Shown: positions 1,429-32,554 of the stretch, one piece after another
Layout of the letters: each line of letters begins with the position of its first letter
Numbering within the stretch: the first letter of the stretch is position 1
Assembly: GCA_010356995.1 (NCBI GenBank)
Contig: ML996694.1
Span: 185,224 to 249,223 of the forward strand
Source: Trichodelitschia bisporula
Taxonomy: Eukaryota
Direction of reading: 5' to 3'
DNA: 64,000 bases
Program-made: the position numbers and the translations under genes
The notes under the pieces: model-generated
What the model was told of the DNA's origin: nothing
Seen by the model: only the letters and a program-made list of their open reading frames with translations
Database searches by the model: none

Positions 1429-3768
1429 ATGAACAACTTCGTCTACGACCTCTTCCTCTGGACCTTCTCGGTCCTGGTCGACCTCTTCTTCCGTGAAGTC
1501 CACCCCCGCGGCTCATGGAAGGTCCCGCGTAAAGGGCCGGTGATTTTCGTTGCCGCGCCTCATGCAAACCAAGTACGCGCCGCGTCCCACCGCACGCCGC
1601 ACTGCTAACCGTCGTAGTTCGTCGACTCCCTCATCCTTATGCGCCTCGTGCGAATTGAGGCCCGCCGCCGCATCGTCTTCCTCATCGCCGAAAAGTCCAT
1701 GCGTCGCCGCTTTATCGGCTTTGCCGCCCGACTCATTGGCGCTATACCCGTTGGCCGCGCCCTAGACAGCACTAAGGCTGCGCCCGGGCGCATATACCTC
1801 CCGGATCCCGAGAACGAACCGCTGCTGGTGCGCGGCGTGGGCACGAATTTTGAGGACAAGGAATTCCAGGTTGGCGGATTGCTTGTGCTTCCGAATGTCA
1901 ACCACGCAGCGGCCAATGCCGAGATTCTGGAGATTGTGGGGCCAGAGGAGATTCGACTTAAGAAACCCTTCAAGGGAGCTGGTTTGGACCTTGTGACGGG
2001 CAAGCAGCTCGTTGTGCCGGATGGCGAGGATAGAGAGGAGCTGGAGCGGGTCTGGAAGGAACATGGCTTTCAGGGATCGCGGTTTAGGATCGCGCCCAAG
2101 GTCGACCAGACACATGTTTACGACTCGGTTTTTGAGTGTCTTCACGATGGGGGGTGCATTGGCATATTCCCCGAGGGGGGTAGCCATGATCGGACGGAGC
2201 TGCTGCCGTTGAAACGTATGTGCTCCCCAATATTCTCATTGCCTAAGCTTGCTAACTTGTAAAGCTGGTGTCGCTATCATGGCGCTAGGAGCCCTCGCTG
2301 CGGACCCCAATTGCGGACTGAAGATTGTCCCTTGCGGCATGAATTACTTCCATGCACATAAGTTCCGCTCGCGGGCGGTTGTCGAGTTTGGTACACCTGT
2401 GGAGCCGTCGCGCGAGCTAGTGGAACTGTATAAGAAGGGCGAGCGGCGAGAGGCTGTTGGCCAGTTGTTGGACACTGTGTACAACTCACTGGTGTCGGTT
2501 ACGGTGACGACGCCCGATTACGATACGCTGATGGTGAGTCCTCTTTCGGGTCTGCGGGAGCCACGCTAATCGTGCAGCTCATTCAAGCTGTCCGTCGTTT
2601 ATACAACCCCAAGGGCAAGAAACTGCCACTGCCCATGGTCATCGAGCTGAACCGCCGACTGGTCAAGGGCTACGCGCGCTACAAGGACGACCCGCGCATC
2701 GTCGACCTTAAGAAGGCCGTGCTGAGATACAATCACCGCCTGCTGTCGCTCAACATCCGTGATCACCAGGTCGATTACGCTAAGCTGCCTATTTTGAAGG
2801 TGCTCTTTCTCTTCGTATACAGACTGGTCAAGATTGTGCTGCTCTCGGTGGGCGTGCTCCCTGGGCTCATTCTCTTTGCACCCGTCTTCATCGCCGGCAA
2901 GATCATTTCCATCAAGAAGTCACGTGAAGCACTCGCCGCCTCAACCGTCAAGATCACCGGCAGCGATGTTATCGCCACGTGGAAGCTGCTCGTCTCACTC
3001 GCACTTGCACCGGCGCTGTACAACTTCTACACCTTGCTCCTGGCGTACTGGACCTACAAGAACCGCGTATGGGGAATTGTGCCCGAGTGGGTCCCCCTGT
3101 GGGCCATCTTCATCTTCGGCTACATCTTTTTCCCAACCATCACGTACGCCGCGCTCCGCTTCGGCGAAATCGGCATGGACATTGCGAAGTCGCTCTGGCC
3201 GCTCCTCGTCTCCCTGAGCCCCGCGCACGGCAACCAGCTCGTAAAGCTGCGCGAGCGGCGCGCGACGCTCGCGGCTCAGGTCACGGATCTGATTAACGAA
3301 CTTGGGCCGGAAATGTTTCCGGACTTTGACTCGTCGCGCATTATTGCAGATCCGTATCACGAGACGCAGTTGCTGCACAAGCACGACTCGTATGGGCGCT
3401 CGCGACGCGACTCCGAGCTCGACGGATGGAGCGAGCCGACGACGCCGACGCAGCCTGCGAGCACGCATATCCATTTCGCGACGGAGACGGGGAGTGCACA
3501 GGGCCATTTGCCGCGGAATGAGTCGTTTAAGAATATTGGTGATATTGGGCTTTTCAGTTCGCGGCCGAGCACGCCGCATCATCATCGGAGTAGGAGCAGG
3601 ACGAGTAGTGGGGGGTTCCCGATTCAGGGGTTTAGTGCGCTGGATGGGAGGGAGGGGTTTGATGAGGTTAGTAAAAAGATTCGCGGGGCGATGAGGGAGA
3701 GGGGGATTAGGAGGAGGACGAGTGAGACGGAGAGGGCTTGGGAGGTGGGGAGTGGGGGGGGGGAGTGA
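1429..3768 (+). CDS. SCT1: Glycerol-3-phosphate/DHAP O-acyltransferase (Sct1/Gpt2 family)
   Basis: MNNFVYDLFLW...APHANQ|FVD (HxxxxD), IFPEGGSHD motif, C-terminal TM segments; introns ~1573-1617, ~2216-2264, ~2534-2577. The poly-G run near 3754-3763 may hide a 1-nt error (alternative end ...ENGDANGKKHL* near 3802). Confidence 0.93.
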
Positions 3769-5371: not shown

Positions 5372-8300
5372 ATGTTCGCTAAGTTACGCCCCCACCACAA
5401 GCGCGCCGGCTCAACACCCACCTCTCCCACACCACCCGGTCTCCCAGCACTCGTCCTCCCTCCGAACTCAAGCCATGCGACCGGAAGCACGCCGAGCGGT
5501 CTCTACACGAGTCCTCAACCCCCGCCGGGACATTTCGCACAATCGAGCGGCCCGCAGGCGCAATCCGCGCAGCAGCCTCGCGACGCTAGACCCGACACCG
5601 ACTCGCCCAACAGCTTCTTCTACTTTGCGCGCGTGCCCGAGCCCGAGACGCCCAGTTTGCAACCCACGAGCTCGATCGAATCGCCGATCAGCCCTTTCCC
5701 GCCTACGCTCCCGCCGATACCGCGTATCGCGAGCGTCGTCTACGATAAGCAACAGGCGGCCCAGGCGCTCCAGCCGCAGCAGCAAGAAGACACGTCCGTT
5801 CCAGACCGCCAACATTCATTCGACTTCCCGTTCGACCGCCCGCGCCGCGCCACCGAGTCCAGCATCGAACGGCACAATGCCCCGCTGCCGCAACCACCGG
5901 AACCAAGTCCGGGACTACCACCGCCGCCACTGCCTCCGAAGCAGGCTCTCGAGCCCGGGTATGGACGAGAGGCACCCTACCAGTCGTATACGCCGGAGCC
6001 GCAGTATGCGTCCCCGCCAGAGGGCCGCATGATGCTCCATGCGAACGAGCCGCTGCGGATGCCGTCGAATCATTCTAGCCATTCGGCTGAGTGGAAGGCG
6101 CTGCCTGACCCGGGGAGGGTGGAGAATCGGCCGCCACTCGGGGAGAACCGCGAGAACCGGCTGATGCCGACGGTGTCGAACGAGTACCGCCAACCGCCGT
6201 TTCACTCCTCGGAACCGCGCCCGCAGCCCACTTTCTCCGAGCCGCCGCGCGCACCGCCTCCGCGCGCTGCCCCCGGTCCGCGCTATCCTGTCGCTCCTGT
6301 TCCGCGTACCGGCAAAACTAAGCTTAACTTGCTGAATCCGATGTCACTCCTGCTGCGCCGCCGCTCAGCGCACCCTCTCGAGCCGCTCGCCAACGACGCC
6401 CTGGCCACAAGCAAAGGCCGCACCCCGCCCATGCGCGATAACTTTGAAGTCTCGATCCGCGGCACAGGCATACATGATTTCAGCGCCCCGCGCACGCGGC
6501 GGAATTTCAGCGCGCCGGTGGAGGGCTTGGAACTTGAGCGCGAGCGGGAGCGAGAAAGGTCGATGCTCAGGCCAGTGAAAGAGACCGGATCGCGAACGCC
6601 GGTTTTCAAGGAGAATTTTGAGGAGGATGGGGAGGGGGCCCGCGCGGAGATGCTTGAGAATCGAGACTTTGTGGCGAGGAATTCGAGGTTGTTGGGGGAT
6701 GAGAGGAGGGATGAGAGGGGGGATAAGGCACTGCCGGTGGTGGGGGAGGGGTTGGAGGGTTTGCCGCTGCCGGTGCCACCGGTGCCGCCGTTTGTGGTTA
6801 GTGAGCCGCCGCCGATGATGGAGAGGATGCAGGCGCAGATGCTTGAGGCGCCTGCACAGGTGACACGCGGTCCATTATCGCCGCTGATGGAGGACGGGCC
6901 CGTGTCGTCGCTCTCCGACGATGCCGCCCCCGATACATCTCCACAGGATTCAAAGCGCAAATCCACCCGCGAACCACCCCAGTCCCGCGCCTCGCGCATC
7001 AGCCACGTCTCCTCGCACGCATCGCGCACGTCCCGCGTATCGCAGATATCCCGGCGCAGCACCGCGAGCGGCGAATTCCAGTCCGCGGGCCTGCCGGCGC
7101 ATATGTTTTCCCGCAGTTCACGGTTTAGCTTTCAGTATGCGGGGGTGGAGGCTGCAGCGCAGGAAAGGGCACTGGAGGAGGCGCATACGAAGAAGGAACG
7201 AGAGAGGAGGAGGAGGTATGGGGATGGGGATGGCGATGGGGATGGGCATTCAGGGGTTGCCGATGCAGATGCCCATGGGTGTGGGGATGGCGATGCCCAT
7301 GGGTGTTGAGGGGGGCCAGATGGGGCAGATGCCGATGGGGATGGGTTTGCCGGCTGGAATGGGTCTGCCGCCGGGCATGACTCTCCCTCCGGGTATGGCT
7401 TTTCCTCAAGGCTTCGCCTTCCCCCAGGGCATGTCCATCCCGCCGTTCAACGGCAGCCTTCCGATGAGCCCTGTATCACCGATGTCTGGGCTCGGCATCC
7501 TACCAACCATCTCGCCCGATACCACCGACCCGCAATCATCCATCTCTCCTCCGCAACCATCTACCTCGACGGACGCTAACTCTCTCCCTCTTCCGCAACC
7601 CCCACCGGCAGATGAATCCCCCGTCCTGCCGCACCTCGTCTCCCCAGATGCAGGCTCGACGGCCACCTTCCCGCAACCAGCGCCTACTGCCGCACCGGCC
7701 CCTGAACCCGAAGCGAAGGCAAAAGACGACGACTTCTACTTTGACGACGGAATGATGTCAGACGCAGACTTCCACATCCCGGATGGCGAAGAAGGCTTCG
7801 ACGAGGAACTCTTTGACGAGATGGAGCGGCCCGCACCTGTCGCCATGTCCTCCCCTCCACCTCCACCGGCACCGGCCCCTGTACCCCCAACCACCGCTGC
7901 CCCCGACCCCGCCCCCGGAAGCGCAGTAAAGCAACCCGACCACGCCATGGCAGCGTACTACTCCGCTCTCGCCCAAGCCGCCAACCAAGCCGCCGCCGAG
8001 GGGCGCTTCAGTCGGCATGATAGTTTTAGCTTGCACTCGCCGCGGACTGGCGACTCCGCCCACGACCCCGACCCACCCTCCGCCCCCTACAGCTCCTCCC
8101 GCCCCAGCCTCATCCCCGACGACTCCCGGGTGAGCCAAGCGCCCTCGCTGTCCCCGCCGCCGGTGCCCGAACCGTCGCACCTGAGTTCTACGTCTGGCAC
8201 GTTGAGTACGCCGGCGAAGGGGGGGTTTTATGGGTATGGAGATCCGTACGGGGATGATGAGTTTGGGTTCGATTACAGCGACTACGATTCCGCGCTCGAG

Positions 8301-9535
8301 GATGATGGGGTTATTGCCGCTGCGAACGCGGAGGCGCTAGCACAAGACGAAGAGGGCGTCTACGGGCGGGAATTCGGCTTCTACGCCCGCGCCCCGGCGT
8401 CCGGCGAGGCTAGTCCCGCTGATGAAACGGGTCTTGGTGGGTATTTCGGCCCGAAGACGTGGGGCGAGGTACGCCGGAATCGCAGTACGCGGGAGCCGAA
8501 TTTGACGCCAATTACGGAGCGGAGTGAGTATAGTACGCGGAATAGTTTCCTGGCTGGTGGGGAGACGGGGGAGAGGGGGAGGGGCGCGAGTCCGCCGCTG
8601 CTGCTGNNNNNNNNNNNNNNNNNNNNNNNNNNNNNNNNNNNNNNNNNNNNNNNNNNNNNNNNNNNNNNNNNNNNNNNNNNNNNNNNNNNNNNNNNNNNNN
8701 NNNNNNNNNNNNNNNNNNNNNNNNNNNNNNNNNNNNNNNNNNNNNNNNNNNNNNNNNNNNNNNNNNNNNNNNNNNNNNNNNNNNNNNNNNNNNNNNNNNN
8801 NNNNNNNNNNNNNNNNNNNNNNNNNNNNNNNNNNNNNNNNNGGGGGGGAGTCAGACGAGTTTGGGGAGTTTGGGGAGTGGGGGGGTGGGTGGGAGTCCGG
8901 GGGGGGCGCCAAGTACGTCGACGCCGGCGATGGGGGAGAGGTGGAGGGGTTTTGGGGGGTTGGGGGTTGATTTTGACCCCGAGGGGGGTGGGGAGGGGGA
9001 TGGGGTGGAGTATGCGGGTGGTGATGAGGAGGAGTATGATGATGAGCCGTTCGATCCGGATATGCTGGATGAAGCGAACGCGCTGGCGGATCAGCCCGGC
9101 AGTGAGGAGAGTAGTGTGTATGGGGACGGGGAGGGGAGGCACCCGGTGCTTGATAGTCCGACAATACGGGCTGCGGGTGTCGGGAGCTTGGGCTTACTGG
9201 TCCCGGAGGGGATGGGCACGGGTGTGCCGAAGTTGGCGCTCACGAGTCCGACGCTTAATTCGATGCCTAGGATGTTGGAGCCTGTGTCACCGGTGCCGAG
9301 AGAGGAGGGGATGGTGGGGAATGCTGGTTCGCAGGCGTCGTCGATGCTCGCGCAGCTGCCGCCGCAGCGTGCGCAGGGCCATGCTAGGAGCGGGAGTGAC
9401 AGCGTTGCGTACGTGCGGGAGAGGGTTGGGGAGGGGGAGGAGGAGTTTAGATGGGTGCTTGAGCGGAGGAGGACGGGGAGTGATGGGGTTGAGAGTGTAG
9501 TTGGGAGGGTTGTTGTTGAGGGGGGGAGGATTTGA
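5372..9535 (+). CDS. Large Pro/Ser-rich conserved fungal protein of unknown function (disrupted by a frame break near 7215 and an N gap)
   Basis: Three consecutive ORFs (5372-7309, 6921-8606, ~8850-9535) with non-random blocks LNLLNPMSLLLRRRS, IRGTGIHDFSAPR, SRFSFQ, IAAANAEALA, EPNLTPITERSEYS, HARSGSDSVAYVRE...WVLERRRT, read as one gene. Confidence 0.72.
8607..8841. other. Assembly gap (235 N)
   Basis: Run of N inside the coding region, bordered by G-rich sequence. Confidence 0.99.
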
Positions 9536-9711: not shown

Positions 9712-11208
9712 TCATCGCCATTTAGCGTACTCTGCTTCCTCCGCCATCCGTTCCTTGACTAGGTTTACTACGCCCGCGCTGTACACCTCCTCCACCCCCT
9801 TCCCTCCCTTCAACACCTCCCGCTCATGCCTCACCCCCTCCTCCTTCGTCATACACACCACCTCCCCCATCCTCACCGTACTCCCCTTCTGCCCCTCAAC
9901 ACTCCCATCAACAACCCTCCCCCTCGGCCTCTCCCACCTCACCAGCACCAGCCTCGTCCCCAACCCACTCACACAGCTCCGTCCCCGCCACACCTCTTCA
10001 ATCAAATACCCAGCATCATCAACATCCAACGGGACCCTAACACCCTCATCCGCCTCCCCCGCCGCGCGCGCCAATCTCTCCTCACTCCCCTGCAGCGCAT
10101 TCAGCGCCGCGTCGTACGTCTTCGGCCTCGCCTTCGCCGCAAAATACTCCCGCGGATAATCCGCCAGGGCCAGGAGAACATGATTCGCAGCCGCGAGGCC
10201 GAAGACCGCGGGGAGTGTGCCTAGGACGGGCAGGATGCGGATGCGGAAGTCCTTCAATACCGATAACTCATCTATGCTTCCTTCCTGGAACTGGGCTTCA
10301 GGGAGGGGGAGAAGTTGCGCCTTGCCGGTGCCCGGCTTTTCGGTTGAGAAGATGGTGGGGATACCGCTGGTTATGCCGAGGGCGCGGAGACGACGCCGTG
10401 TGTGCCGCGAGAGAGGGTCGTCGGTCGTGCTGCTGATGTCCCCGACGAAGACGCGCGTCGGGTCGGATTTACACCCTGCGCCCATGGCGCTGACCACCTT
10501 GATCCCGTTCGTCGCACAATAATGCAGCAAGGCGACCTTACTATCCACATTATCAATCGCATCGACCACCCAATCCGGTTTCCGCCCCTCCCACTCCCCA
10601 AGCAACGCGCCCGCACTCCCCGCACTGAATAATTCAGCCCGGCAATCGAATTTCACCCACGGCGCAACGTGCTCCAACCGCCGCCGCAGCGCATGCACCT
10701 TCGGCGTCCCGACGTCCGCGAGCGTGGCTACCGCGTGTCGGTTCAGGCTGCTCAGGGTAACTTGGTCGAAATCCACGAGCCGGATGGAGCCGATCCCGGA
10801 GCGCACGAGCGCGGCCGCGGCGTGGGAGCCTACGCCGCCGCACCCGACTACGACCACAAAAGACTCGCGAACAGCGGCGAGCCCGGCGGGCGTGAGGAAG
10901 ACAGACGTCCGCGCAAGCTGTTCGTTGATAAGTTCCTGATCATAATCGCCATGCCTCGCGCGAGCCGCAAGGGCAGCCCCACGCGCATCTTCCTTGCTCA
11001 GCGCGGCAGCGCCGTAGGGCGTGAGATGCGTTGCATTACCGTCGATGGGCGGGATGGCGGATTTGATTTCGCGCAGGCGCTGCTCGCGGCTTAGACGCTG
11101 GTAGCTGAGGAGCAGACCGAGGGCGAGGGTGGAGGACGCGACGGCGGTGAGGGCTAACTGTGTGCGTTGCGTGAGAGATGTGGGGGAGGGGATGGATGGC
11201 CAGGGCAT
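9712..11208 (-). CDS. TCD1: tRNA threonylcarbamoyladenosine dehydratase (ThiF/E1-like, Tcd1/Tcd2 family)
   Basis: 498 aa intronless ORF; N-terminal TM anchor, VVVVGCGGVGS, DFDQVTLSSLNRH, DAIDN, AMGAGCKSDPT, RILPVLGTLPAVFG. Confidence 0.92.
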   Translation of the reverse strand: MPWPSIPSPTSLTQRTQLALTAVASSTLALGLLLSYQRLSREQRLREIKSAIPPIDGNATHLTPYGAAALSKEDARGAALAARARHGDYDQELINEQLARTSVFLTPAGLAAVRESFVVVVGCGGVGSHAAAALVRSGIGSIRLVDFDQVTLSSLNRHAVATLADVGTPKVHALRRRLEHVAPWVKFDCRAELFSAGSAGALLGEWEGRKPDWVVDAIDNVDSKVALLHYCATNGIKVVSAMGAGCKSDPTRVFVGDISSTTDDPLSRHTRRRLRALGITSGIPTIFSTEKPGTGKAQLLPLPEAQFQEGSIDELSVLKDFRIRILPVLGTLPAVFGLAAANHVLLALADYPREYFAAKARPKTYDAALNALQGSEERLARAAGEADEGVRVPLDVDDAGYLIEEVWRGRSCVSGLGTRLVLVRWERPRGRVVDGSVEGQKGSTVRMGEVVCMTKEEGVRHEREVLKGGKGVEEVYSAGVVNLVKERMAEEAEYAKWR

Positions 11209-11552
11209 TGTGGGGGGCGTGTGGACATGGAGGTGAGGTTTTGGGGGGCGTCAGCTGATGATGAGGCTCTGCTTTTTGAGGTTTGGTGTGGGACGTTGGG
11301 ATCCTGGTCGCGTGTGCCACTGTCCGGGGCCTGCGTGTGGCGGTGCGCCCCACAGCGTGCAACGTCAGGCGAACGGGCCACTTGCTGCCTGTTGCGCGCG
11401 CGCCCGGGCCGGTGGTTCGGAGCCGGGGTTGTTTTAGCACGCGCGACGTCTGCGAACCTTTCTTCGACGTCAACAACACCAGGTGAGTTCGCTTCTGCCC
11501 CGTCGCCCTGCTGCTCATACCATTTAATGTGGGCGAAAGCTAACAGACTAGA

Positions 11553-11646
11553 TCCCAGTGAAGAAACCCTCACAGAGCACCGAAGCAGTGCCGCTGCGCC
11601 TAGCGCGCGCTCTGCAATGCCGGTTTCTGAACAGAGATCTGAGGGA
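11553..11646 (+). ncRNA. Putative box C/D RNA domain 1
   Basis: C box GTGAAGA 11558-11564; CTGA at 11627-11630 (extended stem AGAAACC/GGTTTCT) and at 11639-11642 (terminal stem TCCC/GGGA); starts right after an intron 11483-11551. Confidence 0.55.
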
Positions 11647-11680
11647 GCGGGCTCGAACCCTTTCCCCGCCACTCACATAA

Positions 11681-11769
11681 CGCGCGCGTGACGACAGCCA
11701 TACTTCGAAGCTCCGCGTGCTCGCGTGATGCTGCTGAGAGGGAAAATGTAGTTTTCAATCGGATGCGTG
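11681..11769 (+). ncRNA. Putative box C/D RNA domain 2 (candidate U4 A65-equivalent 2'-O-methyl guide)
   Basis: C box GTGACGA 11688-11694 and D box CGGA 11760-11763 (compensatory C-G at the usual U-U position); terminal stem CGCGCG/TGCGTG; TAGTTTTCAAT directly before D is antisense to conserved U4 UUGAAAACU. Confidence 0.6.
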
Positions 11770-11814
11770 GAGGGGTTGGTTGGGGTTGTGGGTTCGGGTG
11801 CGGCGGGTTGTTCG

Positions 11815-11930
11815 AGTCCTGTGATGAAAGCTGTGTCAAAGCCAAATTTGCAGGCAGCCTGTCCCCTTGCTTACTGCGTGGGCGGGGATGTGGTTGTCGG
11901 TGAGAACAGGTGAGAGCTGATCTGAGGACT
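11815..11930 (+). ncRNA. Box C/D RNA domain 3 (candidate U2 guide)
   Basis: Canonical C box GTGATGA 11821-11827, D box CTGA 11922-11925, terminal stem AGTCC/GGACT, long internal G.U-rich hairpin; AAGCCAAA and AGAACAGGTG are antisense to conserved U2 segments. Confidence 0.72.
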
Positions 11931-12197
11931 ATAACGGGGTGGTGCTGGTGCTAGGATGGCGGATAGCGGGGGATGGGTTGGTTGCGGAGGATCAGCCGGT
12001 GCAGCTTCAATTCAAACGCGTTTTGCCTTCCTGCCGCCTGCTCGTTATATACTTGCTCCTTTTACGACAGCGTTCGCTGACAATATGATGCGAGGCAACT
12101 ACATCGGTAAGGAACTATAGTGGGCAAAACTGCGCTGCGACCCTGAACCGGCACCGTCATCCATATACTCCCTCCTATATTATAACTTTTCCATCCC

Positions 12198-12353
12198 GGG
12201 GGAGGTGGTATACATGACCAAGGAGGAGGGGGTGGGGCATGGGCGGCAGGTGTTGAAGGGGGGGAGTGGGTGGAGGAGGTTTATAGCACTGAGGTGGTGG
12301 GGTTGGTGAGGGAACGGATGGCGGAGGAGGCGGAGTATGCGAAGTGGCGGTGA
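12198..12353 (+). pseudogene. Inverted relic copy of the TCD 3' end (last ~52 codons)
   Basis: Reads GEVVYMTKEEGVGHGRQVLKGG-(1 nt deletion)-VEEVYSTEVVGLVRERMAEEAEYAKWR*, versus GEVVCMTKEEGVRHEREVLKGGKGVEEVYSAGVVNLVKERMAEEAEYAKWR* at 9868-9712 (-). Confidence 0.9.
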
Positions 12354-12543
12354 TGATGGAAGTATATGCTTATCATGGGCAATGGCTACGGCACGAAGTG
12401 AAAGTTTGATGAAAGAGAGAAGAGAGGTGCATACCACACGGTGCACTGGTAGCGTACCGTACGGTAATGAGTGAACGGGTGGACCCAGGCACGTGACAGC
12501 ACTACCGGGCCGCAACAATCTCACGTGATCCTCTCCATGCTTT

Positions 12544-12640
12544 AGGTTGCCGCTTAATCCGGCCTCACGAAGTAATCTCAGATTGAGAAAATGATTGTGG
12601 CCTCAGGTTGCCGCTTGATTAAGCCTCACCAAGTGATCTC
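12544..12640. repeat. Imperfect direct repeat, ~36 bp unit, 61 bp period
   Basis: AGGTTGCCGCTTAATCCGGCCTCACGAAGTAATCTC vs AGGTTGCCGCTTGATTAAGCCTCACCAAGTGATCTC. Confidence 0.75.
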
Positions 12641-13046
12641 CCACGAGCTAATTTTTTTTTAAAAGAGCAATAATGTTCCACGCCAAACCGGATGGGGGTA
12701 AGCGGACGCACCTGCATGCGCACGGTCGGAGGGGTGCGTTTGGTTGCAGCATGATTGGCCTAGCATGCTCGTTGGCCAGAAGCATTCGTGAGAAGCATTC
12801 GCTAAAGCGAGGGGTATTTATGTTCACCTTCGACCTTTCTCTTAACAACTTTCTCTCATCAGATCCCTAAAAATTTACAGTATTCTTCGAGGTCTCCTTC
12901 CCAGATTCCATCTGACGTTTTCCAGATCGTGATTAACTACGCATTTGCCATTCCTGTTCTTCAGCCTTGGATAAAAAATTGATCGAAACTTCCTTATTCA
13001 CGCCGCTCAACTTCCTCCCTGTCGAACAATAGTCTCAGCCTGCACG

Positions 13047-23802: not shown

Positions 23803-25438
23803 CTATGACACCAGAGCGCGCTCACTCTCCAGCGCCCCCCTCACACCCCGCACCACATACACCACCCCACCAACCGCCAGCACCACGACCACGACAGCAG
23901 CCTGCACTGGGGCAAATAGCGCGCCACGCACGACCACCGCACCGCTGACGATGCAGAACACGAGCGGCACGACGACGGGCACGCGGTACGGGCGCTGCAG
24001 GCGCGGTTCGCGCACGCGCAGGACGAGATCTGCGAGGACGGTGAGGAAGAAGAAGGCATACTCTGTCAACCCGTCCAGCGTGACGAGGGTGCGGAACGTG
24101 CCGAGCAGGATATACCCAGACGATAGGAGGGTGGTCAGGAGGAGCGCGTTGATAGGCGCGTCGTGCGCCGGCGTCACGGCGGGATCGGAAGGCTGGGTGC
24201 CGAAGATACTCCCGATGCGGCCCAGCGCTTGCGGGAACCAGTTGCGCCCCGCGGCGGCGACGGTGATACGGCCTGCGACGAAGAGGTTCCCGGATAGGGA
24301 GCCAAGGATGACGATGACGATTAGGCAGGCGGTAATCAGGGCGGGGATCGGGCCGAGGAGGGATTTGATTGCGTTCTGCGGGTATTAGGCTAGATTGAGT
24401 TGGTGGTTGGGGGGCGGGGGAGACGCACCACGGCAATAGCGTCCGTCATCCCGACCTCCGCCCATGGCAGCAGCACATAGTACGCTGCGTTAACAGCGAC
24501 ATAGCACGCCGCCACAGCCGGCAGCGCCGTGTTCAGCGCGAGGGGCAATTGCCGTGCTGGGTCGCGGAGCTCGCCCGCGACGTAGTTAGCCTACGCATAT
24601 CAGTTTCAGTTCTTCCCCCATCGCAGTGTCGTGAACGCACCTTATCCCACCCCGCATAAGCCCACAGCGCGCCATACACCCCCGCCGAGTACCTTCCCAA
24701 CCCCTCCCACCACCCGATCTTCGCCCAGTCGATCGTGCCGCCGGGCGTGATGCTCGGCCTTTTTGCGAACCAGTTACGCCGGTACCAGTCGTCGCCGCCG
24801 ATGCCGCCCCGGCCCGGGTGCACTATGTGGGCGAACACGACGCCCAGCCCGGCGAGGACGAGCAGGGTTATAGTTAGGGCTTTGGCGGCGAGGAAGAAGG
24901 TGCTTAGGCGATTGCTTAGGCTCGTGCTCACGGCGTTTGCCCCCGCGACGAGCAGCACCACGCCGATGGCGGCGAGTTTCTCAGCCCAGAGGGGCGCGCC
25001 GCCGAGGGCCTGGGCCACACTCTCTGCGAACACGAGCGCGAGGATCGCAGCCGTGGCGGGCATGACGATCGTCGTGAACGCCCATGCCGCCGCGAAGCCG
25101 ACGGCGTCGCCGTACGCGTGCCGCAGGATGGGTTGGATGCCGCCTGCGGACGGGAAGGTGGTGCCTAGGCTGGCCATGGTGGCGGCGCCGGTCCAGGCTA
25201 GGAGGCCGCCTAGGAGCCAGACGGAGAGGGCGAGGGCGGGGGAGGGGACGTTGGTGTCTATTGCGGCGGGGGAGGCGAAAATGCCGCTACCGATTATGAT
25301 GCTGATTAGGAGGGCGAAGGCGTTGAGGGTTGTTAGGGTTGGTTTGAAGATGCTGGGGGGAGAGGGGGGGCGCGGGGGTGGGAGGAGGGGGCTAGATTCG
25401 GAGAGAGAGGGTATTGTTGATGGGAGATGGGATGCCAT
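23803..25438 (-). CDS. L-type amino acid transporter (APC/LAT, Mup1/Mup3-like)
   Basis: IIIGSGIFASP TM1 motif, LWAYAGWD, many TM helices, C-terminal LRVREPRLQRPYRVP; introns near 24590-24640 and 24380-24430. Confidence 0.92.
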
Positions 25439-32445: not shown

Positions 32446-32554
32446 GGCAACGTGGCGGAGTGGTTAACGCGCTGCCCTGCTATATCCGATCCCTTCCCGT
32501 TCGGCTTGTAAGGCAGTTCCTTCGGGAGCGTAGGTTCGAATCCTGCCGTTGTCG
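32446..32554 (+). tRNA. tRNA-Ser(GCT) with 28 nt intron
   Basis: Acceptor stem GGCAACG/CGTTGTC, D arm TGGCGGAGTGGTTAACGC, anticodon stem CTGCC/GGCAG with GCT at 32479-32481, intron 32483-32510, long variable arm TTCC-TTCG-GGAG, GGTTCGAATCC, downstream T-run terminator. Confidence 0.96.

What the first reader, a model, noticed from the sequence alone, without database searches (positions are those of the whole stretch)
11483..11930. Spliced non-coding locus with three tandem box C/D domains that appear to guide spliceosomal snRNA methylation (scaRNA-like cluster)
SEEN: divergent from the TCD start is a clean intron (GTGAGT 11483, GCTAAC 11539, TAG 11551) with no credible coding exon. Three C/D units with terminal stems follow: GTGAAGA/CTGA, GTGACGA/CGGA and GTGATGA/CTGA. 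The two non-canonical box pairs give Watson-Crick pairs (A-U, C-G) at the K-turn's U-U position. Unit 2 has TAGTTTTCAAT directly before box D. Unit 3 has AAGCCAAAT (11839-11847) before a degenerate D' and AGAACAGGTG (11903-11912). Unit 1 has CAGAGAT before its last CTGA. KNOWN: C/D RNAs methylate the target base paired 5 nt upstream of D/D'. U4 has conserved UUGAAAACU with Am65 (human guide SCARNA5/U87). U2 has UUUUGGCU with Gm19 (SCARNA9) and Cm61 (SCARNA2). INFERENCE: the D+5 rule lands on the U4 A65 equivalent (unit 2), U2 G19 (unit 3, if D'=TTGC) and, more weakly, U2 C61 (unit 1, only 7 bp). I found no rRNA complement by eye. This would be a fungal snRNA-modification guide cluster missed by protein annotation; whether it is already in Rfam is unknown to me.
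Basis: partly seen in the sequence, partly recalled or inferred. Interest (0 to 1): 0.85.

Follow-up and report, generated by a model that had tools for sequence, protein, structure and literature searches.

The report
Tandem box C/D snoRNA cluster, fungal
Next to a tRNA-modification gene lies a non-coding stretch carrying three small guide-RNA-like units in a row, one of which may direct methylation of the spliceosome's U4 RNA, though that target could not be checked against this organism's own U4.

Summary
The three C/D-like units are not a chance cluster. A relaxed C/D scan finds 12 candidates in the window's 128 kb (both strands), and 3 of them are these units. None of 200 Markov simulations gave 3 within 400 nt.

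Unit 3 has canonical boxes and a 5-6 bp terminal stem. Units 1 and 2 keep both sheared G.A pairs, but the U.U position is replaced by A-U and C-G. One contig of a public run (kind only guessed to be RNA) spans all three units, 11550-12036. No Rfam family matches and no ORF has Pfam support.

Targets are the weak part. No genome, snRNA or ortholog could be obtained. About 70% of a stand-in fungal rRNA was searched. The only notable hit is the unit 2 guide against 18S (10 Watson-Crick pairs plus 1 G.U), at a site with no methylation known to me. The same guide is a perfect 10-11 nt match to the U4 motif as I recall it, and D+5 falls on the A65 equivalent. The proposed U2 pairings are 7-8 bp, which is chance level.

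Verdict: probably a real polycistronic C/D snoRNA locus. The U4 guide is plausible but unproven. A whole-cluster scaRNA-like reading is not supported.

The parts
11483..11551 (+). Putative 69-nt intron of the non-coding host transcript (GTGAGT ... GCTAAC ... TAG)
   Evidence: The signals are read directly. The X1 contig starts at 11550, the AG shared by the exon 1 end and the intron end. This is a weak inference; no joint was seen.
11553..11646 (+). Unit 1: C/D-like, C box GTGAAGA (11558-11564), D box CTGA (11639-11642), second CTGA at 11627-11630, 4-bp terminal stem TCCC/GGGA, A-U at the U.U position
   Evidence: The terminal stem is not in the single-sequence MFE fold. No target was found in the available rRNA (60 of 60 shuffles score at least as high).
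11681..11769 (+). Unit 2: C/D-like, C box GTGACGA (11688-11694), D box CGGA (11760-11763), 6-bp terminal stem (2 G.U), C-G at the U.U position, D guide TAGTTTTCAAT (11749-11759)
   Evidence: The terminal stem is present in the MFE and centroid folds. The guide pairs with 18S AUUGAAGACUA (2 of 60 shuffles reach that score). It pairs perfectly with the recalled U4 AUUGAAAACU.
11815..11930 (+). Unit 3: canonical C/D, C box GTGATGA (11821-11827), D box CTGA (11922-11925), terminal stem AGUCC/GGACU, long internal hairpin about 11847-11899, C'-like GTGAGAA (11900-11906)
   Evidence: The fold shows the terminal stem and internal hairpin, z = -2.27, with 2 of 200 shuffles as stable.
11550..12036 (+). 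Stretch covered by one 487-nt contig of run X1 (X2: 11664-12033); probable exon 2 / polycistronic precursor
   Evidence: 0 differences and 0 gaps. The run kind 'RNA?' is a guess by the tool.
9712..11208 (-). Divergent neighbour: ThiF-family ORF (TCD-like), 498 aa

Best explanation
This is a non-coding locus that shares a divergent promoter region with a TCD-like gene. It encodes three box C/D snoRNAs in tandem on one precursor, 11550-12036, which is probably exon 2 of a spliced host transcript. The spacers are 35-45 nt long, as in polycistronic snoRNA clusters of yeasts, plants and Neurospora. Each unit would fold into a C/D K-turn bound by Snu13, recruit Nop56/Nop58/Nop1, and be trimmed out of the precursor. 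Unit 3 is canonical. Units 1 and 2 keep the tandem G.A pairs and replace the U.U pair by A-U and C-G. The U4 5' stem-loop K-turn, bound by the same protein, naturally carries G-C or G-U at that position. The unit 2 D-guide most likely directs 2'-O-methylation of the U4 snRNA adenosine equivalent to human Am65. It may have a weaker second pairing to 18S. The targets of units 1 and 3 are unresolved. Shown: the motifs, their clustering, the folds, and contig cover across all units. Inferred: splicing, processing, snoRNP assembly and all targets.
For: The motifs are at the stated coordinates. Three of the 12 relaxed C/D candidates in the window lie in tandem within 370 nt on one strand, and 0 of 200 simulations reach a cluster of 3. 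In all three units, stem II reads G.A, A.G, then a pair at the U.U position, then G-C, then A-U with the base before box D. Terminal stems close the MFE folds of units 2 and 3, and unit 3 folds better than 198 of 200 shuffles. One contig covers 11550-12036 without a difference. No ORF in the locus has a Pfam match, and ORFs that lie wholly inside 11550-12036 are at most 46 aa. A Watson-Crick 3b.3n pair is the natural state of the U4 K-turn and folds on L7Ae binding (PMC4382518, passages read). The unit 2 guide has 11 nt directly abutting box D, with D+5 on the first A after G. Human U4 Am65 is a documented site guided by scaRNA5/U87 (PMC7960923, table passage read). Arabidopsis U4 has a single Nm, A67, with no guide assigned (PMC8053127, table 3 read); that A67 is the equivalent position is my assumption. 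Neurospora has C/D snoRNAs predicted for U2, U5 and U6, an exon-encoded snoRNA, and UHG-like non-coding hosts (PMC2780460, table 1 and passages read).
Against: No ortholog could be fetched, so there is no conservation or covariation evidence. The relaxed box rule was post hoc. The unit 1 terminal stem is only 4 bp, is absent from its MFE fold, and its fold is no better than shuffles (z = -0.67). The unit 2 fold has z = +0.93. No Rfam C/D family matches, even at E up to 10. The contigs show a long precursor-like molecule, not mature 80-120 nt RNAs, and the run type is only a guess. The U4 sequence is recalled, not fetched. With the human-like U4 the pairing is 10 bp, about as good as the 18S pairing of 10 WC + 1 G.U. 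I recall that stem II sequence matters for Nop56/58 assembly (Watkins 2002; the paper could not be opened).
Confidence: 0.55

Rival explanations
1. These are ordinary rRNA-guiding C/D snoRNAs. Their targets lie in the rRNA parts that could not be searched (SSU model positions 1-566, LSU 2330-3006), or unit 2 methylates 18S at the AUUGAAGACUA site.
For: Most fungal C/D snoRNAs guide rRNA (PMC2780460, table 1). The unit 2 guide pairs with 18S over 11 bp with D+5 on an A, and only 2 of 60 shuffled guides score as high. About 30% of the rRNA, including much of LSU domain V, was not available.
Against: The 18S pairing has an internal G.U where a C would give a perfect match. It falls about 54 nt upstream of the snR54/CD49 site, at a position with no methylation known to me (recalled lists; CD49 guide read). 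With 10 guides tested, one hit at about 3% is near expectation. None of the other 9 guide candidates stands out in the 70% searched. The one exception by score (unit 3 D guide, 2 of 60 shuffles) lies on an intron-exon junction of the stand-in rDNA and disappears in the mature rRNA.
Confidence: 0.22
2. Only unit 3 is a functional (orphan) snoRNA. Units 1 and 2 are decayed copies or chance motifs inside a non-coding or upstream transcript.
For: Only 1 of the 3 units has canonical boxes. Units 1 and 2 do not fold better than shuffles. No target with strong support exists for units 1 and 3. The units are not alignable paralogues (60% mean column identity over a gapped alignment).
Against: Both non-canonical units change the C-box and D-box positions so that a Watson-Crick pair results, and both keep G.A/A.G, G-C and A-U. 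A tandem cluster of 3 never arose in 200 simulations. Unit 2 has a 6-bp terminal stem in its MFE and centroid folds.
Confidence: 0.15
3. One reading: a scaRNA-like cluster in which all three units guide snRNA methylation (U4 A65, U2 G19, U2 C61).
For: The unit 2 guide fits U4 (recalled motif). AAGCCAAA can pair with the recalled U2 UUUGGCUU, with position 5 on the first G if D' = TTGC. CAGAGAT could pair with AUCUCUG if the fungal U2 has it (my recollection of the S. pombe U2 is uncertain). G20 of Arabidopsis U2 is methylated, and human Cm61 is listed (PMC8053127, PMC7960923).
Against: 8 bp next to a D' with two mismatches, where the D' position is chosen freely, and 7 bp, are both chance-level matches against about 700 nt of snRNA. 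Neither U2 nor U4 of this species or of any fungus could be fetched. No scaRNA signal was tested.
Confidence: 0.08

Closest known systems
Polycistronic / UHG-like box C/D snoRNA clusters of fungi (Neurospora crassa clusters I-VI, Liu et al. 2009, PMC2780460)
   Same: A non-coding host with canonical splice signals, several C/D snoRNAs on one transcript, and only short ORFs. One N. crassa snoRNA (CD6) is exon-encoded.
   Different: In N. crassa most units sit one per intron. Here all three lie downstream of the only recognisable intron. By eye, none of the 55 N. crassa sequences (supplement 1) shares the guides of units 1-3.
Fungal C/D snoRNAs predicted to guide snRNA methylation (N. crassa CD29 U2-Am31 = SCARNA9-like, CD11 U6-Am47, CD24 U5-Am62, CD26 U2-Gm183)
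   Same: A C/D guide with an antisense element against a conserved snRNA segment. CD11 uses one element for both 18S and U6, which parallels the dual 18S/U4 fit of unit 2.
   Different: No U4 guide is listed for N. crassa, A. fumigatus or T. rubrum in the papers read. Unit 2 has GUGACGA/CGGA boxes.
Human scaRNA5 (U87), guide for U4 Am65 (PMC7960923)
   Same: The same proposed target nucleotide.
   Different: As I recall, U87 is a composite C/D-H/ACA Cajal-body RNA. Unit 2 is a simple C/D unit. No homology was detected (Rfam).
U4 snRNA 5' stem-loop K-turn
   Same: A Watson-Crick pair (G-C or G-U in U4) at the 3b.3n position following the tandem G.A pairs, bound by 15.5K/Snu13 (PMC4382518).
   Different: That K-turn recruits Prp31, not Nop56/58/fibrillarin. 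Here the context is a C/D motif with guides.

Membership tests
Box C/D snoRNA | Box C RUGAUGA near the 5' end and box D CUGA near the 3' end | tested here: met
   Unit 3 meets this exactly. Units 1 and 2 each differ from consensus: C-box position 5 (unit 1), and C-box position 5 plus D-box position 2 (unit 2). So it is met for 1 of 3 units and met with variants for the other 2.
Box C/D snoRNA | K-turn geometry: tandem sheared G.A pairs plus stem II | tested here: met
   In all 3 units the GA of box C faces the GA of box D, followed by a pair (U.U, A-U or C-G), then G-C and A-U. This is read from sequence only, with no structure probing.
Box C/D snoRNA | Terminal stem of 4-6 bp joining the ends | tested here: met
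   Stems are 4, 6 and 5 bp. They are present in the MFE folds of units 2 and 3 but not unit 1.
Box C/D snoRNA | Antisense element of at least 10 nt abutting D/D', with the target site at D+5 | tested here: inconclusive
   Unit 2 pairs with 18S over 11 bp (10 WC + 1 G.U) and with the recalled U4 motif over 10-11 WC. Units 1 and 3 have nothing above shuffles in about 70% of a stand-in rRNA. No snRNAs were available.
Box C/D snoRNA | Stable 70-200 nt RNA bound by Snu13, Nop56, Nop58 and Nop1 | not testable with these tools
   Only assembled contigs of two runs of guessed kind were available.
Box C/D snoRNA | Conservation of boxes and guides in related species | not testable with these tools
   No genome is held. 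The single TCD relative found (L019, 62% identity) has only about 250 nt upstream and no similarity to the locus.
Any Rfam snoRNA/scaRNA family | Covariance-model match | tested here: not met
   No snoRNA family matched at gathering score in the window or at E up to 10 in 11200-12700.
scaRNA (Cajal-body guide) | Localisation element (CAB box, or G.U/U.G wobble stem in C/D scaRNAs) and Cajal-body residence | not tested
   Not examined. The elements are known to me only from recall. A coilin ortholog in fission yeast appears in a search listing (PMC11347179, abstract only).
snR54 / U59 / Nc CD49 (18S Am974 guide) | Guide complementary to 18S GAACGAAAGUU | tested here: not met
   The CD49 guide, read, is UCAUAACUUUCGUUC. 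Unit 2 pairs about 54 nt upstream, at AUUGAAGACUA (the distance is counted on recalled yeast sequence).

The most novel reading that the evidence does not exclude
Unit 2 would be the first fungal guide RNA for the conserved U4 snRNA 2'-O-methyladenosine (human Am65, plant A67, for which no guide is assigned in Arabidopsis). It would be carried by a C/D RNA whose K-turn has a compensated C-G pair in place of the near-universal U.U. This would show that the C/D snoRNP tolerates a Watson-Crick 3b.3n pair in vivo, and that the 18S-like sequence UUGAAGACU may have been the evolutionary source of the U4 guide.
Probability: 0.35. Interest if true: 0.55.

Novelty: new member of a known kind. Interest (0 to 1): 0.42.

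Why it matters
Fungal snoRNA annotation is incomplete, and guides for snRNA methylation in fungi are known only for U2, U5 and U6. A U4 guide would make the function of the conserved U4 Am65-type methylation genetically testable in a filamentous fungus by deleting one 90-nt unit. The two units with compensated Watson-Crick pairs at the U.U position are natural test cases for how much box variation the C/D snoRNP tolerates. They also explain why standard snoRNA finders and Rfam miss such genes. If the targets turn out to be rRNA, the locus is an ordinary unannotated snoRNA cluster.

Tried and rejected
1. No whole genome is held for the window, so the species' own rRNAs and snRNAs could not be searched.

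2. Sequencing runs: no RNA holder is listed. The two runs laid are contigs of guessed kind. The stretches 11277-11549 and 12037-12800 carry no contig apart from a 35-nt piece, and no joint was reported. These gaps are not used as evidence.

3. Orthologs: the single metagenome scan, run with the TCD protein, gave one locus (L019, 62% identity). It has too little upstream DNA and no similarity to the locus.

4. rRNA stand-ins:
- Fungal rDNA pieces found as contaminants in bacterial assemblies cover SSU model positions 567-1831, 5.8S and LSU 1-2329, plus LSU 3007-3393 from L015.
- Scans of viral contigs for the missing parts gave nothing or only short fragments.

5. U4 and U2 could not be fetched by any route:
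- A viral-contig pattern gave 6 chance hits, none of them U4.
- A U2 pattern gave 0 hits.
- An RF00015 search of 5 genomes and 14 controls gave nothing.
- cmscan of the 35-nt guide region gave no hit.
- Text and supplement searches for the motifs found nothing useful.
- Gu et al. 1996 and Watkins et al. 2002 are not held.

6. Rejected target hits:
- Unit 3 D guide against LSU ATCAGCTCTTA (11 bp) spans an intron-exon junction of L014 and is lost in the mature rRNA.
- Hits at L014 LSU 2413-2430 lie inside that intron.
- Unit 3 CCAAATTTG against LSU CAAAUUUGG is 9 bp, 10 of 60 shuffles score as high, and D'+5 would miss the recalled Um898.
- GGGCGGGGA against 18S UCCCUGCCC has no adjacent box.

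7. I first took the 18S site for the snR54 Am974 site. The CD49 sequence showed that this was wrong.

8. Earlier findings of this scan gave nothing.

9. The three units are not paralogous copies.

10. I looked through my recalled yeast 18S 1-566 and 25S 2330-3006 by eye for complements of the seven guide candidates and found none longer than 8 nt. This carries no weight as a test.

Full report
OBSERVATION

- Intron signals: GTGAGT at 11483-11488, GCTAAC at 11539-11544, TAG at 11549-11551.
- Unit 1: GTGAAGA at 11558-11564, with CTGA at 11627-11630 and at 11639-11642.
- Unit 2: GTGACGA at 11688-11694 and CGGA at 11760-11763.
- Unit 3: GTGATGA at 11821-11827, with CTGA at 11917-11920 and at 11922-11925.
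- Guide pieces: TAGTTTTCAAT at 11749-11759, AAGCCAAAT at 11839-11847, AGAACAGGTG at 11903-11912, CAGAGAT at 11632-11638.

IS IT MORE THAN CHANCE?

I scanned the whole window on both strands with a relaxed rule. The rule asked for RTGANGA, then CNGA 40-160 nt downstream, with the U.U position either U.U or a Watson-Crick pair, and a terminal stem of at least 4 bp.
- The scan gave 12 candidates, 9 on + and 3 on -. Three of them are the tandem units within 370 nt.
- In 200 first-order Markov simulations of the window the mean was 5.7 candidates (sd 2.4). The largest same-strand cluster within 400 nt was 0 in 1 simulation, 1 in 175 and 2 in 24. It never reached 3.
- The rule was written after seeing the data. 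Under the strict rule only unit 3 of the 12 qualifies.
- In each unit the C and D boxes give G.A, A.G, then U.U (unit 3), A-U (unit 1) or C-G (unit 2), then G-C, then A-U with the base preceding box D. The two non-canonical units are therefore compensated, not merely degenerate.
- A Watson-Crick or G-U pair at this 3b.3n position is the natural state of the U4 5' stem-loop K-turn. Such K-turns do not fold in Mg2+ alone but do fold on L7Ae-family protein binding (PMC4382518, abstract and passages read).

STRUCTURE
- Units 2 and 3: the MFE folds close the C/D ends with the terminal stem.
- Unit 3 also has a long internal hairpin, about 11847-11899, followed by a C'-like GTGAGAA. Its z-score is -2.27, and 2 of 200 shuffles fold as well.
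- Unit 1 does not show its 4-bp stem in the MFE fold (z = -0.67). Unit 2 has z = +0.93.
- The units are not alignable copies of each other.

CODING AND KNOWN FAMILIES
- ORFs that overlap the locus have no Pfam match. ORFs lying wholly within 11550-12036 are at most 46 aa.
- Rfam finds only a tRNA in the window at gathering score. It finds nothing relevant at E up to 10 in 11200-12700.

TRANSCRIPT EVIDENCE
- Two public runs of one study hold part of the stretch. The tool only guesses their kind ('RNA?').
- In X1 a 487-nt contig lies on 11550-12036 with no difference. It bridges all three units and both spacers. In X2 a contig lies on 11664-12033.
- If these are RNA assemblies, the three units are co-transcribed on a precursor that ends near 12033-12036.
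- The X1 contig starts at 11550, two bases before the predicted exon 2. Those two bases (AG) are exactly what the end of exon 1 (..CCAG) and the end of the intron (..CTAG) have in common. A de Bruijn contig would break there if spliced and unspliced forms coexist.
- An alternative is a 5' end protected by the unit 1 snoRNP. Either way this is a weak inference from one study, and no joint was reported.

TARGETS: WHAT COULD BE SEARCHED
- No genome is held.
- As rRNA stand-ins I used fungal rDNA fragments that sit as contaminants in bacterial assemblies, annotated with Rfam. They cover SSU model positions 567-1831, 5.8S and LSU 1-2329. A further piece, LSU 3007-3393, came from L015.
- SSU 1-566, LSU 2330-3006 and all snRNAs could not be obtained.

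TARGETS: WHAT THE SEARCH GAVE
- I tested ten candidate guide elements against the stand-in rRNA, each with 60 shuffles. Two scored high.
- The unit 2 D guide against 18S AUUGAAGACUA gave 10 WC pairs plus 1 internal G.U, with D+5 on the first A after G. 2 of 60 shuffles reached that score.
- The unit 3 D guide against LSU ATCAGCTCTTA also had 2 of 60 shuffles as high. This hit spans the junction of a group-I-like intron and its 3' exon in L014, and it is lost in the mature sequence. It is an artefact.
- For the other eight guides, 10 to 60 of 60 shuffles did as well.
- The 18S site is not the snR54/CD49 site. The N. crassa CD49 guide read in supplement 1 targets GAACGAAAGUU, about 54 nt downstream. 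I know of no methylation at the AUUGAAGACUA site; this rests on recalled lists.

THE U4 READING
- The unit 2 guide 5'-TAGTTTTCAAT-3' abuts CGGA. Its perfect complement is AUUGAAAACUA.
I believe S. pombe continues with A, but I could not verify this.
- With D+5 the methylated base is the first A after G, which is A65.
- Human U4 Am65 is documented and assigned to scaRNA5/U87 (PMC7960923, table passage).
- Arabidopsis U4 has a single Nm, A67, with no guide assigned (PMC8053127, table 3). I take A67 to be the equivalent position, but I did not check an alignment.
- A rough estimate by reasoning, not by a call: a 10-11 nt perfect match abutting a D box, against about 700-800 nt of snRNA, has a chance of about 1e-3 or less per guide. 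It is rarer still at a known Nm site.
- This makes U4 the best single target hypothesis. However, with a human-like U4 the duplex (10 WC) is no better than the 18S duplex. N. crassa CD11 shows that one element can serve both an rRNA and an snRNA.

THE U2 READINGS
- Unit 3: AAGCCAAA would pair with the recalled UUUGGCUU over 8 bp. This needs TTGC as D' (two mismatches to CUGA), and position 1 is unpaired.
- Unit 1: CAGAGAT gives 7 bp to AUCUCUG, a sequence I only uncertainly recall for a fungal U2.
- With a freely chosen D' position, or only 7 bp, such matches are expected by chance.

COMPARISON WITH WHAT IS KNOWN
- Fungal non-coding hosts carrying several C/D snoRNAs, an exon-encoded snoRNA, and C/D guides predicted for U2 (CD26, CD29), U5 (CD24) and U6 (CD11) are described for N. 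crassa (PMC2780460; abstract, table 1, passages and supplement 1 read).
- A. fumigatus and T. rubrum surveys list guides for U2, or for U1/U2/U5 (PMC2377427 and PMC3890542, passages read).
- None of the passages read lists a U4 guide in a fungus. The supplements of the fungal snoRNAome paper and of the A. fumigatus paper could not be read and may bear on this.
- By eye, none of the 55 N. crassa C/D sequences shares the guides of units 1-3.

VERDICT
- The locus is most likely a genuine, unannotated, polycistronic box C/D snoRNA cluster on a non-coding transcript (about 0.6-0.7 for at least units 2 and 3).
- Unit 2 as a U4 Am65-type guide is plausible (about 0.35-0.45) but rests on a recalled target sequence.
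- The claim that the whole cluster is scaRNA-like and aimed at snRNAs is not supported (about 0.1).
- In kind this is a new member of a known class.
- The compensated box variants and the possible U4 guide give it moderate interest.

Noticed in passing
window 24080-24189 (+): A fourth candidate has the same unusual box pair GTGACGA/CGGA and an 8-bp terminal stem (110 nt). It lies in a GC-rich stretch overlapped by long ORFs (23951-24388 +), so it may be a chance match inside coding sequence.
   Followed up: partly
window 32446-32554 (+): A tRNA gene matches the 71-position Rfam model over 109 nt, so it probably contains an intron.
   Followed up: no
window about 8600-8850: A run of 235 N interrupts the long ORF 6921-9500 (+). 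This is an assembly gap.
   Followed up: no
window 11907-11915: CAG|GTGAGA, a good 5' splice-site look-alike, sits inside the D-guide region of unit 3. The contig in X1 runs through it without a joint.
   Followed up: partly
window 11770-11815: The spacer between units 2 and 3 is strongly G/T-rich (GGGGTTGGTTGGGGTTGTGGGTTCGGG). A similar G/U-rich run occurs inside N. crassa CD45, as read in the paper's supplement. Its meaning is unknown.
   Followed up: no
L014 (LSU part, about 2238-2511 in rRNA orientation): The fungal rDNA contaminant in a bacterial MAG carries a group-I-like intron in the LSU, inside ...UAUGACU|CUCUUAAGG. It created a false snoRNA target hit.
   Followed up: yes
L002-L014: Thirteen bacterial or archaeal assemblies in the genome collection contain fungal rDNA contigs matching a fungal ITS primer, that is, eukaryotic contamination.
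   Followed up: partly
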